The translations under genes and the position numbers were made by a program. The notes under the pieces were generated by a model. It saw only the letters and a program-made list of their open reading frames with translations, did no database searches and was not told the origin of the DNA. Shown here one piece after another: positions 1 to 4,363 of a stretch of DNA of 24,000 nucleotides. Numbering within the stretch: the stretch's first letter is position 1; every line of letters starts with the position of its first letter. This stretch comes from Grimontia hollisae CIP 101886. Lineage in GTDB: Bacteria; Pseudomonadota; Gammaproteobacteria; Enterobacterales; Vibrionaceae. The stretch is taken from assembly GCF_000176515.1 (NCBI RefSeq), contig NZ_ADAQ01000013.1:1361-25360 (forward strand), read 5' to 3'.

Positions 1-100
1 GCAGCTTGTTGCCCGCAGAATCGAGGATGCAGACATAAAGAATGCGCGCATGCAGATCGATGCCGCAGTAATAATCATGCTGTTGGTTATAGAATCTCAT
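1..100 (-). CDS. IS110-family transposase, first 33 codons only (gene runs off the left edge)
   Basis: Reverse-strand ATG at 98-100, preceded by GGAGAAG (rc of 105-111). Translation is MRFYNQQHDYYCGIDLHARILYVCILDSAGNKL, the YCGIDLH...VCILD N-terminal pattern typical of IS110-family DEDD transposases. Absent from the ORF track because it is truncated. Confidence 0.6.
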   Translation of the reverse strand, partial: MRFYNQQHDYYCGIDLHARILYVCILDSAGNKL

Positions 101-169
101 TGAGTCTTCTCCGTTTGGTTTCGTCGCCTTCCAGCTTAGCCGGACGGTTAAGTTGGAGGAGAAGGCTCA
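101..169 (-). promoter_or_regulatory. 5' leader inverted repeat able to sequester the transposase RBS and start region
   Basis: 101-112 tgagtcttctcc and 158-169 ggagaaggctca are reverse complements (11/12). In the minus-strand RNA the upstream arm pairs with GGAGAAGACUCA, which lies immediately 5' of the AUG. Confidence 0.4.
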
Positions 170-175
170 ATGAGT

Positions 176-296
176 ATCAAACTGTTTAAGAGGGATTCAC
201 AACGCTTGGCATTTTTGGTTTAATTCGGCTTAAGTGTTTACGGCACAATGGTTTAGGTTAGGTGGTGGCGTTGTTCACCACTTAACGCGGCTACAT
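176..296 (+). repeat. Integron attC site 1 (Vibrio-repeat class), proximal part up to the IS insertion point
   Basis: R''-like ATCAAAC at 176-182. The block 180-215 matches 2278-2313 at 33/36 nt (aactgtt[tc]aagagggattc[ag]caacgc[tg]tggcatttt). acaacgc (199-205) pairs with gcgttgt (268-274). The 3' arm ends ...cttaacgcggcta, then CAT. Confidence 0.65.
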
Positions 297-543
297 GGAT
301 TCCCCCGTTCGTCAAACATCCGCTAAACTTTTGAAGATAGGTTTTGGACTGCCGCTCTACATTCGGCCTTTCGCTGACTCACGTCATGGCCCTGATGACA
401 TTGCGCGGTTGCAGTGCCTCATTCGTTAGAAGGCATCAATGTGCCCGCCGCATTAACAGGCTCTCTGCAAATGGTCTTAACCTTTCCTCATCAGCTGCGT
501 CTGCAATGACCCGGTTGGTGTGTTTCCTTGCGCCGCCTCTTAC
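297..543 (-). ncRNA. Candidate bridge RNA / seekRNA of the IS (3' non-coding tail)
   Basis: No credible ORF. Hairpin 351-354/364-367 presents CTACATTCG (357-365), which equals left flank cta + CAT + right flank tcg of the empty site. Hairpin 415-419/431-435 presents (T)CATTCGTTAG (419-429), identical to 1630-1640. GTCATGG (383-389) and the rc of ATGACAT (394-400) match the end-to-end junction ...ccATGTCATGGatt. Strand is assumed to be that of the transposase. Confidence 0.5.
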
Positions 544-1566
544 TTAGGCGGCGTAGTCTTGATACTCAGTTTGGTTGTGTAACAGTGCCCAGATAATCCG
601 GGCGTTCTTGGCTGCTAAAGCGACAATGGCGCGGTTCATTCCTCGTCGTTCGAGGACGTTTCTCCCCCAGACGCTGAGCCTGTCCTGTTTTTCACCCAAG
701 TTCGTAATGACGGCTCTCGCGCCATGAACCAAGAGCGTGCGTAGGTATTTGTCACCGCGTTTACTTATCCGCCCAAGTCTGGGTTTACCGCCAGTTGAAT
801 ACTGTTTGGGCACCAGCCCAAGCCAGGCGGCAAAGTCTCTGCCGGAGTCGAACTGTTCGCCTTTACCAATGGTGGCAATAATTGCGGTTGCCGTTTGAGG
901 ACCAATGCCTCGAACCTTAAGAATACGCTGCGCATTGGGGCTGGCCTTGGTCACCATGTCAAAGCACAGTTCGGTGTCGTCGATGCGTTGGTTGAGTACT
1001 TGTAGATGCTCAAAACAATCACCGAGCACAGCACGAGCAATATCAGGCAGTCCGTTATCCGCGGCTTCGAGAATAAGCGGAACATCACGTTGAATCGCGT
1101 GGCGTCCGGTGGGGATAACTATCCCAAACTCAGCGAGCAGGGCACGAATGCGATTAATGAGCGCGGTGCGTTCTTGAACCCAATGTTCCCGCATTCGGTG
1201 GATGGAGAGAATCGCCTGTCGTTCAGGTGATTTAACAGGAACGAAGCGGGTGGCATGGCGCTGAACCGCTTCGCAGATAGCGATGGCGTCATTGAGGTCA
1301 TTCTTGCCTTTAGTACGGTAAGGGGCAACATATTTAGCGGCCATGATTCGGGCATCATGGCCTAACTTGATGAACTCTCTTGCCCAATAATGCGCCCCAG
1401 AGCACGCTTCGATGCCTATACGCATGGTTGACATATTTGCTAATGTAGTCAGCAATTTAGCGCGTGATACGGATTTGTGAAGAATGACCTTTCCTCGGTC
1501 ATCAACCGCGTGCAGGGAGAAGTGGTGTTTGGCGAGGTCAACGCCACAAAAGAATTGAGAAGACAT
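544..1566 (-). CDS. IS110-family (IS1111-type) transposase, 340 aa
   Basis: ORF-track 544..1593 trimmed to the ATG at 1564-1566, which has GGAGGT 6 nt upstream. N-terminus is MSSQFFCGVDLAKHHF...IGIEACSGAHYW (DEDD/RuvC-like domain). C-terminal part has ...RGIGPQTATAIIATIG...AAWLGLVPKQYSTGGKPRLGRISKRGDKYLR (Transposase_20-type helix-hairpin-helix module). Confidence 0.9.
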   Translation of the reverse strand: MSSQFFCGVDLAKHHFSLHAVDDRGKVILHKSVSRAKLLTTLANMSTMRIGIEACSGAHYWAREFIKLGHDARIMAAKYVAPYRTKGKNDLNDAIAICEAVQRHATRFVPVKSPERQAILSIHRMREHWVQERTALINRIRALLAEFGIVIPTGRHAIQRDVPLILEAADNGLPDIARAVLGDCFEHLQVLNQRIDDTELCFDMVTKASPNAQRILKVRGIGPQTATAIIATIGKGEQFDSGRDFAAWLGLVPKQYSTGGKPRLGRISKRGDKYLRTLLVHGARAVITNLGEKQDRLSVWGRNVLERRGMNRAIVALAAKNARIIWALLHNQTEYQDYAA

Positions 1567-1630
1567 GGTTACCTCCGGTATTTGATGCAACACCTAAGTG
1601 TGGCAAATCCTCGTGAGGGGGAATCCATGT

Positions 1631-1642
1631 CATTCGTTAGTT
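1631..1642 (+). repeat. attC-1 distal remainder: second CAT copy, tc, then R' core GTTAGTT
   Basis: cattcGTTAGTT lies immediately after the right IS inverted repeat. GTTAGTT (1636-1642) fits GTTRRRY and pairs with ATCAAAC (5/7, including AAC:GTT). The next cassette would start after G1636. Confidence 0.55.
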
Positions 1643-1657: not shown

Positions 1658-1936
1658 TCAATCCGCAGGGAATTTTTGTTTCTGGTGGAGTACACGCATA
1701 ACTCGGATGATATCGCCTTCGACCCAGTAAGAGACAATCATCGAAATCTCAGGAATAATGAGCAATCGTCCGCGGATGCCATCTCGTTGTACACCCATTA
1801 AAGGTTGTTCAAGCAAGTTTTCTACTTTGGCTTCAATGAGGTAGTCAGTCTTTTCTGCCGCATCAGGGTTGAAGTCATAGAGAAACTCGAAGATCTTTTC
1901 ACGATCATTAAGTGACTCTTCTTCCCATAAAATCAT
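1658..1936 (-). CDS. RelE/ParE-superfamily type II toxin, 92 aa
   Basis: Small basic protein ending ...IVSYWVEGDIIRVMRVLHQKQKF, typical of the RelE/ParE fold. Its start overlaps the upstream antitoxin stop (ATGA, 1933-1936). Located in an integron cassette. Confidence 0.8.
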   Translation of the reverse strand: MILWEEESLNDREKIFEFLYDFNPDAAEKTDYLIEAKVENLLEQPLMGVQRDGIRGRLLIIPEISMIVSYWVEGDIIRVMRVLHQKQKFPAD

Positions 1937-2217
1937 TGCTTACCTCGATTACGGATTCTGGCTTTGCGCTCTTCCATTCGAGATTTAGCAGTTTGGTGCT
2001 CAACGAAAACGGATTTTCCTGAGTCAAACTTCTCAAATGCTAGGTTTACTTGTTCAGTTAGCCATGCATCGTGAGATAATGTTTTTCTTTGTTGTTCAGC
2101 GAGTTGCTCAGTAAGTTCACGGCATGCGTCACTCAGAGTGCGACCTTGGCTCTCAGCCATTTGTTGAGCTAGGCGTTTTGTTTCTTCATCAACACGAAAT
2201 TGAATTCTAGTGTCCAT
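1933..2217 (-). CDS. RelB/DinJ-family antitoxin, 94 aa
   Basis: N-terminus MDTRIQFRVDEETKRLAQQMAESQGRTLSDACRE is the ribbon-helix-helix pattern of RelB/DinJ antitoxins. AAGGA RBS. 4-nt overlap with the toxin gene. Confidence 0.8.
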   Translation of the reverse strand: MDTRIQFRVDEETKRLAQQMAESQGRTLSDACRELTEQLAEQQRKTLSHDAWLTEQVNLAFEKFDSGKSVFVEHQTAKSRMEERKARIRNRGKQ

Positions 2218-2275: not shown

Positions 2276-2396
2276 CTAACTGTTCAAGAGGGATTCGCAA
2301 CGCGTGGCATTTTCATTATGCGTTGGTTTTAGTGTTTAAGGTGGTATGCGGCGGCTTCGGTATTGCGTTGCTCACCTTTACAGGGCTAGGTTTTTA
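2274..2396 (+). repeat. Integron attC site 2 (same repeat family as attC-1), 123 bp
   Basis: R''-like AACTAAC at 2274-2280. Conserved 5' block 2278-2313. gcaacgc (2298-2304) pairs with gcgttgc (2365-2371). The 3' arm ...ctcacctttacagggctag is followed by R' GTTTTTA at 2390-2396. Confidence 0.7.
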
Positions 2397-2415
2397 GGGA
2401 GAGGAGGGAACCCTT

Positions 2416-2850: not shown

Positions 2851-2981
2851 ACCTAACACATATGAGCCCTTCTCCGGTCAATAGGCAATAGCATTCTTTT
2901 GGCTGCGCCAGCAGCCAATGCTCTCGAACAACAAAGCTGTCTACTTCGTTCTGTCACTTTCGCCGTTAAGTCGTTGCTTAC

Positions 2982-3150
2982 GGCAAACACATATAGAAGG
3001 TCTCTTACTGCGGTCTCACCGCTGCCTGCCAATCGAGTGGCAGGGCCATTAGACATTATTCGGTTAACCCAAGCTGGCGTGGTATGCGGAAACTCAGGCA
3101 TTGCGTGCCTCACACCTCAACGCGACTATGCGTCGAATATTGGGTTAACA
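2982..3150 (+). repeat. Diverged attC site 3 (tentative boundaries)
   Basis: The 3' arm 3103-3128 (gcgtgcctcacacctcaacgcgacta) matches the attC-1 3' arm 268-293 at 19/26 ungapped. A weak 5' arm at 2982-3011 matches 16/30, including GGCAAAC vs ATCAAAC and agaagg vs agaggg. Central hairpin cctgcc/ggcagg at 3025-3030/3039-3044. The first GTT after the arm is GTTAACA at 3144-3150. Confidence 0.4.
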
Positions 3151-3425
3151 TCCATGCTCTTATGAAGAATTCGGATTACCCTGATTTGTTGGCGGCCTGT
3201 TTGCAGATAAAAGATGACGTGACTACCTTGGGAAAATTTTCTGTATCCCTCTCGGATTTCATCGCATGATTTACCGATATCGGGATTTTCCGCTAAAAGC
3301 CAAAATGAGTCATCGAATTGCTTTAAATAAACATTTCGCTGCTCTTTTCCCCAGCGGCGTTGAGTGAATAAAGCAATATCCCGTAAATCGGTTTTAGCGG
3401 CGACAGTCAGATTAAATAGTTTCAT
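3126..3425 (-). CDS. parE: ParE toxin (type II TA, gyrase-poison family), 99 aa
   Basis: MKLFNLTVAAKTDLRDIALFTQRRWGKEQRNVYLKQFDDSFWLLAENPDIGKSCDEIREGYRKF...IRVIRILHKSMDV matches the ParE proteins I recall from Vibrio superintegron cassettes. ATGA overlap with parD (3422-3425). Confidence 0.9.
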   Translation of the reverse strand: MKLFNLTVAAKTDLRDIALFTQRRWGKEQRNVYLKQFDDSFWLLAENPDIGKSCDEIREGYRKFSQGSHVIFYLQTGRQQIRVIRILHKSMDVNPIFDA

Positions 3426-3667
3426 CGACGGTTTTCTTCACTATCGAGTTCATTGACGAAGCTATCAATGTCATAATCAGCGTCATCACTTTGCTCTCCT
3501 TCAACAAGTAATTGACGGAGTGACTGTAGTTTGGTTTCTTGGTTTTCGAGTAAACGTAGCGCAGAACGAATGACTTCACTTGCTGAGCCGTAACGGCCAC
3601 TTTGTATTTGGCTTGTAATAAAGCTATCGAAGTGTTCACCAAGAGTGATACTTGTGTTTTTAGCCAT
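3422..3667 (-). CDS. parD: ParD antitoxin (RHH, ParD/CC2985 family), 81 aa
   Basis: MAKNTSITLGEHFDSFITSQIQSGRYGSASEVIRSALRLLENQETKLQSL is the canonical ParD N-terminal RHH plus helix. Acidic C-terminal tail. Directly upstream of and overlapping parE. Confidence 0.9.
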   Translation of the reverse strand: MAKNTSITLGEHFDSFITSQIQSGRYGSASEVIRSALRLLENQETKLQSLRQLLVEGEQSDDADYDIDSFVNELDSEENRR

Positions 3668-3823: not shown

Positions 3824-4363
3824 ATGTTATCACGGAAGAATACGGGGCTTGTTGTCGTGGATGTTCAGGGCAAGCTTGCCCGCTTAGTCCATGACAGTGA
3901 ACGAGTCATTGCCAACTGTGAAACGCTAGTGAAAGGAGCAAGGGCGCTCGGATTGCCGATTATCCTGCTTGAACAAAATCCCGACAAATTAGGTTGCACA
4001 GTTGATGAGCTTAAGGCTCACCTTGATGGTGTCGATCCTATATCCAAATTCACTTTTAATGCCTGTGAAGCACCGGAATTTCTTGAAGCCGTTAAGGCGA
4101 TGAAAGCAGATACCTGGTTAATCTGTGGTATTGAGGCGCATATCTGTGTGTATCAAACAGCAAGAGGCTTGGTGGATGCCGGTTTTAATGTTGAGCTTGT
4201 CAGTGAGTGTGTTTCTTCACGTACATTGTCCAATGTGCAGCTTGGTATAAATCGTTCGAAAGACAATGGTGTAACGATCACGGGGTTGGAAATGTGCCTT
4301 TATGAACTGGTGCAGGACTGCCGTCATCCTGTGTTTAAACAGATACTCAGCCTCGTTCGCTAG
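3824..4363 (+). CDS. Isochorismatase-family cysteine hydrolase, 179 aa
   Basis: GLVVVDVQ near the N-terminus and ...WLICGIEAHICVYQTA (catalytic Cys context) are isochorismatase/nicotinamidase-fold hallmarks. RBS GGAGGGGG precedes the ATG. Confidence 0.85.
   Translation: MLSRKNTGLVVVDVQGKLARLVHDSERVIANCETLVKGARALGLPIILLEQNPDKLGCTVDELKAHLDGVDPISKFTFNACEAPEFLEAVKAMKADTWLICGIEAHICVYQTARGLVDAGFNVELVSECVSSRTLSNVQLGINRSKDNGVTITGLEMCLYELVQDCRHPVFKQILSLVR

What the first reader, a model, noticed from the sequence alone, without database searches (positions are those of the whole stretch)
176..1642. IS1111-type element inserted 2 nt upstream of the R' core of an attC; the empty site is fully reconstructable
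attC-1 shares its 5' block (33/36) and its 3' arm with attC-2, but the arm stops at ...cgcggcta. It is followed by a 1.34-kb element bounded by perfect 14-bp subterminal inverted repeats (293-306 and 1617-1630) and by CAT on both sides.

After the element the sequence resumes tcGTTAGTT, a good R' box complementary to the R'' ATCAAAC. So the IS separates the attC stem from its crossover point (G1636/T1637).

This should block integrase-mediated excision of the upstream cassette and excision or reshuffling of the downstream relBE-type cassette. Subterminal inverted repeats, no long target duplication, and orientation-specific attC targeting are the known hallmarks of IS1111-attC elements.
Basis: partly seen in the sequence, partly recalled or inferred. 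Interest (0 to 1): 0.6.

Follow-up and report, generated by a model that had tools for sequence, protein, structure and literature searches.

The report
RNA-guided insertion sequence splitting integron attC

Summary
A perfect 14-nt inverted repeat (293-306 / 1617-1630) encloses a 340-aa IS110/IS1111-type DEDD transposase on the minus strand.

The boundaries needed correcting. A related genome carries the same toxin-antitoxin cassette behind an uninterrupted attC (...GCGGC|GTTAGTTCCCC). Unoccupied attCs in the own genome also end GGGC-GTTA. The element is therefore 292-1635 (1344 bp, one C ambiguous). The flanking TA/CAT...CATTC bases are IS1111-type terminal extensions, not target. The insertion abuts the R' core, 1 nt from the G|TT crossover.

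33 distinct insertions in Enterovibrio, Grimontia, Veronia, Salinivibrio, Thaumasiovibrio, Photobacterium and one Aliiglaciecola all lie at TAAC|IS|GCC-NNN-TTAAG.

The 3' non-coding region (346-472, minus strand) folds into a two-loop seekRNA/bridge RNA, with 7 compensatory pairs. Its guides match the attC R' end and the element's own ends. Joining the ends would create a TTGACG-16 nt-TAGAAT promoter.

The closest ISfinder entry seen is ISVisp6. That lineage is only about 31% identical to the classical IS1111-attC group, which sits at the other end of attC.

A second, unrelated IS110-family element occupies the R'' side of the same attC.

It is a new member of a known kind. This scan has noted attC-targeting IS110/IS1111 elements in at least 29 other genomes.

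The parts
1..181 (-). Context: the transposase-proximal end of a second, unrelated IS110-family element ('IS2'; 347-aa transposase starting at window 100 and running off the window). It is inserted between the R'' TAAC and the spacer AAAC of the same attC.
   Evidence: (22% protein identity to the main element)
182..291 (+). Central part of attC-1: spacer AAAC, L'' arm, variable loop, L' arm and spacer GCGGC. Both R boxes have been cut off it by insertion sequences.
292..1635 (-). The IS1111-family insertion sequence, 1344 bp (C291/C1635 ambiguous).
   Evidence: Empty site in L019 and other relatives. Five full copies in the own genome have the same ends. 33 distinct insertions in relatives.
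292..306 (-). Right end in transposase orientation: inverted repeat 293-306 plus a 1-nt extension (T292).
310..315 (-). TTGACG, the -35 half of the promoter that would form only when the ends are joined. The -10 TAGAAT is made from 293-292 plus 1635-1632.
   Evidence: Read from the sequence. It is conserved as TTGACR in all relatives. No promoter-like site lies upstream of the transposase gene in the integrated state.
346..472 (-). Predicted two-loop seekRNA / bridge RNA. The target loop holds the T guide (446-456) and the B guide (424-429). The donor loop holds guides at 395-402 and 356-362.
544..1566 (-). Transposase gene, 340 aa, with a DEDD/RuvC-like N-terminal domain, a PF02371 C-terminal domain and the motif GLVPKQYSTG.
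1617..1635 (-). Left end in transposase orientation: inverted repeat 1617-1630 plus a 5-nt extension (GAATG on the minus strand).
1636..1642 (+). R' core GTTAGTT of attC-1. It is the first bases of the downstream cassette; the integrase crossover is G1636|T1637.
   Evidence: The cassette boundary is shared with L019, L020 and L021.
1658..2217 (-). Downstream cassette: a ParE/RelE-type toxin (1658-1936) and a RelB-type antitoxin (1933-2217), inverted relative to the array.
   Evidence: 96-97% identical cassette in three related genomes

Best explanation
Window 292-1635 is an intact copy of an IS1111-family, RNA-guided insertion sequence of the ISVisp6 lineage.

Its position and likely effect on the integron:
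- It lies in a Vibrionaceae-type attC at the distal end of a chromosomal integron array.
- It sits between the unpaired spacer (..GGC) and the R' core (GTTAG), 1 nt from the integrase crossover.
- The transposase gene is antisense to the array.
- The 1.3-kb insert separates R' from the rest of the attC. The folded recombination substrate therefore should not form, and the two neighbouring cassettes should be locked together. This is inferred.

Proposed mechanism, by analogy with ISEc11/ISKpn4 and IS621:
1. The element excises as a circle.
2. Joining the ends (...CCATGTA|GAATGAC...) builds a strong promoter, TTGACG-16 nt-TAGAAT.
3. That promoter drives the transposase and the 3' non-coding RNA.
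4. The RNA folds into two internal-loop modules.
5. In the target loop, a 5' guide (UUAAUGCGGCG) pairs with the top strand of the target right side (C|GCCGCRTTAA). A 3' guide (CUAACG) has the sequence of the left side plus the shared base (CTAAC|G).
6. In the donor loop, AAUGUCAU and AUGUAGA match the element's left end and the joined right end in the same 5'-top / 3'-bottom order.
7. The DEDD transposase then recombines circle and attC without a target duplication.

Shown here: anatomy, boundaries, target consensus, RNA covariation and guide matches. Inferred: RNA expression, circle formation, promoter activity and the block to IntI recombination.
For: Transposase family:
- Pfam PF01548 and PF02371; NF033542 at 351 bits; C-terminal similarity to the IS621 and ISCro4 transposases.

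Boundaries:
- In G026 (Parasalinivibrio latis chr 2) the same cassette, 97% identical, follows an intact attC. Query positions 291 and 1635 map to one base.
- Unoccupied attCs in the own genome end GGGC-GTTA.
- Five own copies and 33 distinct insertions in relatives share identical ends. The target is TAAC (33/33) | GCC (30-31/33) NNN TTAAG (28-30/33).

RNA:
- 23 sequences, 25 pairs, 97.4% of cells paired, against 18-46% when the partners are slid.
- 7 pairs carry compensatory changes, and 0 of 500 shuffles reach the observed values.
- RNAalifold finds the same helices on its own.
- The top-strand guide lying 5' of the bottom-strand guide is the order reported for IS1111 seekRNAs (PMC11187229).
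- The Aliiglaciecola copy has a changed guide (AUUGCGGCU) and a changed target (GCCCCAATC).

Activity and expression:
- A sister variant has 3 copies, 99.2-99.9% identical, in three different attCs.
- All five transposase ORFs in the own genome are intact.
- No promoter-like site lies upstream of the transposase gene in the integrated state.
Against:
- The single-sequence fold is no better than shuffled sequence (z = +1.0).
- The guides are almost invariant across the family. Guide-target pairing therefore rests mainly on matches, not covariation. Targets tolerate 1-2 mismatches in the central NNN.
- The window's own variant is single-copy in this genome (at most 91% identical to the others), so its recent activity is not shown.
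- The donor-loop guides are short (7-8 nt), and the repeated ATG in both ends allows alternative registers.
- Rfam has no model to compare with.
Confidence: 0.88

Rival explanations
1. One reading: the element is 294-1633, CAT is a shared or duplicated core, and the target was an unusual attC reading ...GGCTA-CAT-TCGTTAG.
For: CAT occurs at both junctions. The internal string CTACATTCG (357-365) would match such an empty site.
Against: - No attC with that sequence was seen.
- Intact attCs in the own genome and in relatives read GGC-GTTA.
- TA and TC are invariant next to 33 different attCs whose neighbouring bases vary.
- With these boundaries no junction promoter forms.
- CTACATTCG is explained as the donor guide that matches the element's own two ends.
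Confidence: 0.03
2. The copy is structurally intact but is now an immobile resident, fixed at the decayed end of the array, and was carried in together with its cassettes rather than by transposition in this genome.
For: This variant is single-copy and 85-91% identical to the other four copies. The neighbouring attC-2 and attC-3 are degenerate. The IS2 copies that flank several of these attCs may allow whole blocks to move by homologous recombination.
Against: The ORF, both ends, the -35 box and all guide segments are intact and identical to the family consensus. A sister variant has clearly moved recently (three copies at 99.2-99.9%).
Confidence: 0.15
3. The segment is a gene cassette captured by the integron integrase rather than a transposed insertion sequence.
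For: It lies within 1 nt of the G|TT crossover.
Against: - It has no attC of its own.
- The junctions are GGC|TACAT and CATTC|GTTAG, not G|TT...G|TT.
- It has transposase-type ends with inverted repeats.
- The same ends occur at one non-attC-like site in Aliiglaciecola.
Confidence: 0.01

Closest known systems
ISVisp6 (ISfinder entry, IS110 family / IS1111 group; protein listed in the source data of PMC11187229)
   Same: The protein aligns over its full length and is clearly similar when read by eye against the listing. The length class is the same (about 340 aa), as are the N-terminal FCG(I/V)DLAK and the C-terminal LHNQTEY..YAA.
   Different: The sequences are not identical, and the percentage was not computed because the ISfinder sequence could not be passed to a tool by reference. 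I found no paper that states ISVisp6's target.
IS1111-attC group: ISPst6, ISPa21, ISKpn4 (Tetu & Holmes 2008; Post & Hall 2009); seekRNA shown for ISKpn4 and ISPst6 (PMC11187229)
   Same: These are IS1111-family elements that insert in one orientation, antisense to the cassettes, at a fixed position in attC. They have subterminal inverted repeats, no duplication, and a 3' seekRNA with the top-strand guide before the bottom-strand guide.
   Different: - ISVisp6, the nearest named relative of this element, is only about 30-32% identical to them (identity matrix).
- They are reported near the 5' end of attC (PMC3001079); this element is at the 3' (R') end.
- Their hosts are Pseudomonas and class 1 integrons, against Vibrionaceae chromosomal arrays here.
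- I could not check their insertion point directly.
IS4321 / IS5075 (Partridge & Hall 2003), the archetype for IS1111 end structure
   Same: Subterminal inverted repeats with a few extra bases outside them, one ambiguous base at the junction, no target duplication, and a target that is a specific position in a conserved repeat. If the repeat is counted as 12 nt, the extensions here are 7 and 3 nt, as I recall for IS4321 (from memory, not tested).
   Different: Their target is the 38-bp terminal repeat of Tn21-family transposons, not attC. Their transposases are among the matches below 60% identity.
IS621 bridge RNA / bridge recombinase (IS110 group; PDB 8wt6)
   Same: An RNA-guided DEDD recombinase, and an RNA with separate target-binding and donor-binding internal loops, each of which reads both strands.
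   Different: In IS621 the non-coding RNA lies upstream of the gene and the guides are in the reverse order. IS621 has a 2-nt core, whereas only one shared base is seen here. Protein similarity is limited to the C-terminal domain (E = 1.4e-7).

Membership tests
IS1111 family (within IS110 superfamily) | DEDD/RuvC-like transposase with PF01548 and PF02371 domains, 330-350 aa | tested here: met
   340 aa; both Pfam domains found; NF033542 at 351 bits against a cut-off of 140
IS1111 family (within IS110 superfamily) | Subterminal inverted repeats of about 12-14 bp, with a few extra bases outside them | tested here: met
   Inverted repeat at 293-306 / 1617-1630. The extensions of 1 and 5 nt are defined by the empty site.
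IS1111 family (within IS110 superfamily) | No target-site duplication; precise, orientation-specific insertion in a conserved target | tested here: met
   Only one shared base (C). There are 33 distinct insertions, all in one orientation at TAAC|GCC.
IS1111 family (within IS110 superfamily) | The longer non-coding region lies downstream of the transposase gene | tested here: met
   252 nt downstream against 69 nt upstream
IS1111 family (within IS110 superfamily) | GL-P----S(t)G motif in the C-terminal domain | tested here: met
   GLVPKQYSTG, read in the translation; the motif is as given in PMC11187229
IS1111 family (within IS110 superfamily) | seekRNA from the 3' non-coding region with a top-strand guide 5' of a bottom-strand guide | tested here: inconclusive
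   The structure is supported by covariation and the guide matches are present. The RNA itself was not observed.
IS1111 family (within IS110 superfamily) | Circular intermediate with a junction promoter | not testable with these tools
   Only the predicted TTGACG-16-TAGAAT at the joined ends is available.
IS1111-attC group sensu Tetu & Holmes (ISPst6 / ISPa21 / ISKpn4 clade) | Transposase belongs to the monophyletic ISPst6-ISPa21 clade | tested here: not met
   The nearest ISfinder relative, ISVisp6, is 30-32% identical to that clade and about 52% to ISShdy1. The query itself is 51.4% identical to ISShdy1-type proteins.
IS1111-attC group sensu Tetu & Holmes (ISPst6 / ISPa21 / ISKpn4 clade) | Insertion at that group's fixed position near the 5' end of attC | tested here: not met
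   Here the insertion lies between the 3' spacer and the R' core. The group's position is taken from PMC3001079 and was not re-derived from sequence.
IS1111-attC group sensu Tetu & Holmes (ISPst6 / ISPa21 / ISKpn4 clade) | Specific, orientation-fixed targeting of attC sites | tested here: met
   27 of 33 right flanks carry the attC L' motif, and the left flank TAAC is invariant.

The most novel reading that the evidence does not exclude
The ISVisp6-like lineage is a second, independent attC-homing branch of IS1111 elements that has not been described as such. It is specialised on the R' (crossover) end of Vibrionaceae chromosomal-integron attCs. Its guide RNA has stayed constant while the transposase diverged to 63% identity. 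In this genome it shares single attCs with an unrelated IS110-family element that cuts the mirror-image position (TAAC|AAAC) at the R'' end. Two different RNA-guided elements would thus have converged on the same structural landmark, the boundary between the R box and the spacer, and between them occupy most attCs of a small array.
Probability: 0.5. Interest if true: 0.45.

Novelty: new member of a known kind. Interest (0 to 1): 0.3.

Why it matters
Insertion sequences that home to attC are thought to freeze integron cassette arrays. A recent survey states that experimental evidence on this is still limited (PMC11616780).

This locus gives a clean natural case:
- The insertion point is exact.
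- The empty site is known from a relative.
- The predicted guide RNA has segments that can be mutated and compensated.
- The array is small, and five of its roughly a dozen attCs carry this family. Several also carry a second, unrelated RNA-guided element at the opposite end.

The locus also shows that attC targeting arose more than once within the IS1111 family. That is what a programmable guide would allow.

In practical terms, these repeats explain why the assembly breaks at the array, and they matter for annotating integrons in vibrios.

Tried and rejected
No read evidence was obtained.
- Tetu & Holmes 2008 (PMC2447020) is not held. The classical group's insertion point comes second-hand from PMC3001079.
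- Rfam found nothing in the window at the gathering threshold, and nothing at E <= 1 on 280-560.
- The single-sequence fold of the non-coding region is no better than shuffles. The structure rests on the alignment instead.
- My first pattern for attC 5' blocks found only two sites in the window. The array in this window is short and its other attCs are decayed or scarred by insertion sequences.
- I considered the 11-nt repeat 419-429 = 1630-1640 as a full guide for the left junction. Only CTAACG is conserved in relatives. The following AATGA varies (AATAA, AATTA, or a 17-nt insertion), so that part is partly chance or an optional handshake-like match.
- Capture as a cassette by the integron integrase was rejected on the junction sequences.
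- I did not compute the percentage identity to ISVisp6 or ISKpn4, because their sequences exist only as text in a supplement and could not be passed by reference.

Full report
**What is there**

Window 293-306 and 1617-1630 are a perfect 14-nt inverted repeat. Between them, on the minus strand, lies an ORF. Read from the ATG at 1566 it gives 340 aa. It carries both Pfam domains of IS110-family transposases, DEDD_Tnp_IS110 and Transposase_20. It scores 351 bits on NCBIfam 'IS110 family RNA-guided transposase'. Its C-terminal domain is distantly similar to the solved IS621 and ISCro4 transposases. The translation contains GLVPKQYSTG, which fits the GL-P----S(t)G motif that PMC11187229 gives for IS1111 transposases. 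The non-coding stretch is 252 nt downstream of the gene and 69 nt upstream, which is the IS1111 arrangement.

**Boundaries**

- The own genome (4.0 Mb, 13 contigs; the window is C1:1361-25360) holds five full copies and one end fragment.
- All five full copies lie in Vibrio-type attC sites, at the same nucleotide and in the same orientation...GGC|TACATGGATTCCCCC ... GGGGGAATCCATGTCATTC|GTTA....
- attCs without the element in the same genome end ...GGGC-GTTA....
- A search of 60 related genomes found the downstream toxin-antitoxin cassette at 96-97% identity in three of them.
- In G026, identified through its contig length as Parasalinivibrio latis chromosome 2, the cassette is preceded by an uninterrupted attC. 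Query positions 291 and 1635 fall on one and the same base.
- Read out, that site is ...CACACCTTAATGCGGC|GTTAGTTCCCCAG....

The inserted segment is therefore 292-1635 (1344 bp), or equally 291-1634, because one C is shared. They belong to the element. They are the terminal extensions outside the subterminal repeats that are typical of IS1111 elements, and PMC11187229 notes that they are often mis-assigned.

The insertion thus abuts the G of the R' core GTTAGTT. The integrase crossover (G1636|T1637) is 1 nt away.

**Family and target**

A scan of one genome per species found relatives of the transposase, at 63-94% identity, in Enterovibrio, Grimontia, Veronia, Salinivibrio, Thaumasiovibrio, Photobacterium and one Aliiglaciecola. 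Where both ends could be located, the ends are conserved (GAATGACATGG... ...CCATGTA). Over 33 distinct insertions, read in transposase orientation, the flanks are:
- TAAC on the left, 33 of 33.
- GCC on the right, 30-31 of 33.
- Three variable bases.
- TTAAG, 28-30 of 33.

That is the R' box, the spacer and the start of the L' arm of attC, read on the bottom strand.

The closest named element I could see is ISVisp6 of ISfinder. Its protein is listed in the source data of PMC11187229 and is plainly similar over its whole length. In that paper's identity matrix ISVisp6 is 30-32% identical to ISPst6, ISKpn4 and ISPa21, and about 52% to ISShdy1. This agrees with the 51.4% that I obtained for ISShdy1-type proteins on plasmids. 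The element therefore works like the IS1111-attC group but is not a member of that clade. That clade is reported to sit near the 5' end of attC, antisense to the cassettes (PMC3001079). This one is antisense too, but at the 3' end.

**The guide RNA**

In transposase orientation the empty target reads ...CTAAC|GCCGCGTTAAG..., and the joined ends would read ...CCATGTA|GAATGACATGG.... The 3' non-coding region contains the following:
- UUAAUGCGGCG (window 446-456), complementary to the top strand C|GCCGC(A/G)TTAA.
- About 20 nt downstream, CUAACG (424-429), identical to CTAAC|G.
- Further on, AAUGUCAU (395-402), complementary to ATGACAT of the left end.
- AUGUAGA (356-362), identical to the joined right end plus the shared G.

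In both pairs the guide that pairs with the top strand comes first, which is the order reported for IS1111 seekRNAs.

An alignment of 23 different copies (A1) supports a fold of two modules. Each module is an outer stem, an internal loop carrying the two guides, and an inner hairpin.
- 25 pairs, with 97.4% of cells paired, against 18-46% when the partners are slid.
- 7 pairs show changes on both sides.
- No shuffle out of 500 reaches the observed values.
- RNAalifold predicts the same helices without my input.

The single sequence alone does not fold better than shuffles, as may be expected of an RNA dominated by large internal loops. Rfam has no matching family.

The guides are nearly invariant across the family. 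The Aliiglaciecola copy is an exception: its guide is AUUGCGGCU and its flank is GCCCCAATC, which hints at natural retargeting. The 11-nt repeat 419-429 = 1630-1640 is explained by the CUAACG guide plus a few bases that are not conserved in relatives.

**Junction promoter**

The right end carries TTGACG (window 310-315, minus strand). It is followed by 16 nt and then TA. The left end begins GAAT. Joined, they give TTGACG-16 nt-TAGAAT. Both halves are conserved in all relatives, as TTGACR and GAATG. In the integrated state the scan finds no promoter-like site upstream of the gene. This matches the junction-promoter logic described for ISEc11 and assumed for seekRNA transcription. It is an inference, not an observation.

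**State of this copy and of the array**

- The five own copies fall into three variants. The window's variant is single and 85-91% identical to the others. A second variant has three copies, 99.2-99.9% identical, in three different attCs, so it moved recently. A third variant is single.
- All five transposase ORFs are intact.
- The integron integrase is at C3:8673-9617, and the first attC next to it is already occupied.
- The window holds the far end of the array. Ordinary chromosomal genes follow from about 4.4 kb.

**A second element in the same attC**

I checked it.
- It encodes a 347-aa transposase, 22% identical to the first.
- The element is about 1.6 kb and has its own subterminal repeats (pair I2).
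- It is present in six full and two contig-end copies.
- It is inserted between the R'' TAAC and the spacer AAAC...ATAAC|ACATATGAGCCC ... GAGTATC|AAAC....

attC-1 has lost both R boxes to two different insertion sequences, which sit at mirror-image positions at the boundary between the R box and the spacer. Four of the five attCs that carry the first element also carry the second. These attCs differ in sequence, so the insertions are independent events, not copies of one block.

**Consequences**

With 1.3 kb between L' and R', the folded bottom-strand substrate of the integron integrase should not form at this attC. The upstream cassette, the element and the toxin-antitoxin cassette should then behave as one unit. 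This is the published expectation for attC-targeting IS elements, and it is still little tested. I did not test it.

**Verdict**

The boundaries, the empty site, the circle junction and the R'' box needed correction, and the element is not of the named IS1111-attC clade. It is a new member of a known kind. This scan has already noted attC-targeting IS110/IS1111 elements in at least 29 other genomes.

Noticed in passing
window 1-181 (continues to G000:C1:1; full copies at G000:C3:218883-220427, C2:433422-434966, C4:6-1547, C2:437349-438891, C3:3348-4892): A second IS110-family element of about 1.6 kb, with a 347-aa transposase 22% identical to the main one. It has its own subterminal repeats (GGAGAAGGCTCA) and is inserted at TAAC|AAAC on the R'' side of attCs. 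Contigs of the assembly break inside it.
   Followed up: partly
window 2858-3078: A remnant of the far end of that second element, 96% identical over 182 nt. It directly follows an R''-type box ACCTAAC (2851-2857) and is fused by a deletion to the 3' arm of a third attC (about 3080-3128). The 'structured trailer' noted earlier is therefore an IS scar.
   Followed up: partly
window 2380-2400: attC-2 ends ...ACAGGGCTAGGTTTTTAGG instead of ...GGGC-GTTA. Its R' core looks mutated (GCT for GTT) or rearranged, so this attC is probably not recombinable.
   Followed up: no
G000:C3:1897-3237, C2:435074-436413, C3:217436-218775, C3:6252-7592: Three sequence variants of the main element coexist in one genome, 85-91% identical between variants. 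One variant is present in three copies at 99.2-99.9% identity. The copy next to intI is the most divergent.
   Followed up: yes
G000:C5:231487-231726 (L006): An isolated 240-nt left-end fragment of the element, flanked by ...CATAAC|, away from the array.
   Followed up: no
L013, L014, L018 (Grimontia celer, Grimontia indica, Enterovibrio sp.): These copies carry a 17-nt insertion right after the CUAACG guide. The guide then reads CUAACGCC and continues into the right side of the uninterrupted target instead of into the element's left end.
   Followed up: no
L037 (Aliiglaciecola sp.), L027/L008 (Enterovibrio paralichthyis), L040 (Photobacterium ganghwense): These copies have right flanks that do not look like attC (GCCCCAATCATGG, GATCATTAAC, CCTGCACAAT). 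In L037 the top-strand guide has changed in step with the flank.
   Followed up: partly
window 3126-3667: A second inverted toxin-antitoxin pair (ParE-like toxin of 99 aa and an antitoxin of 81 aa), followed by an isochorismatase-like ORF (3824-4363). Ordinary chromosomal genes begin after that.
   Followed up: no
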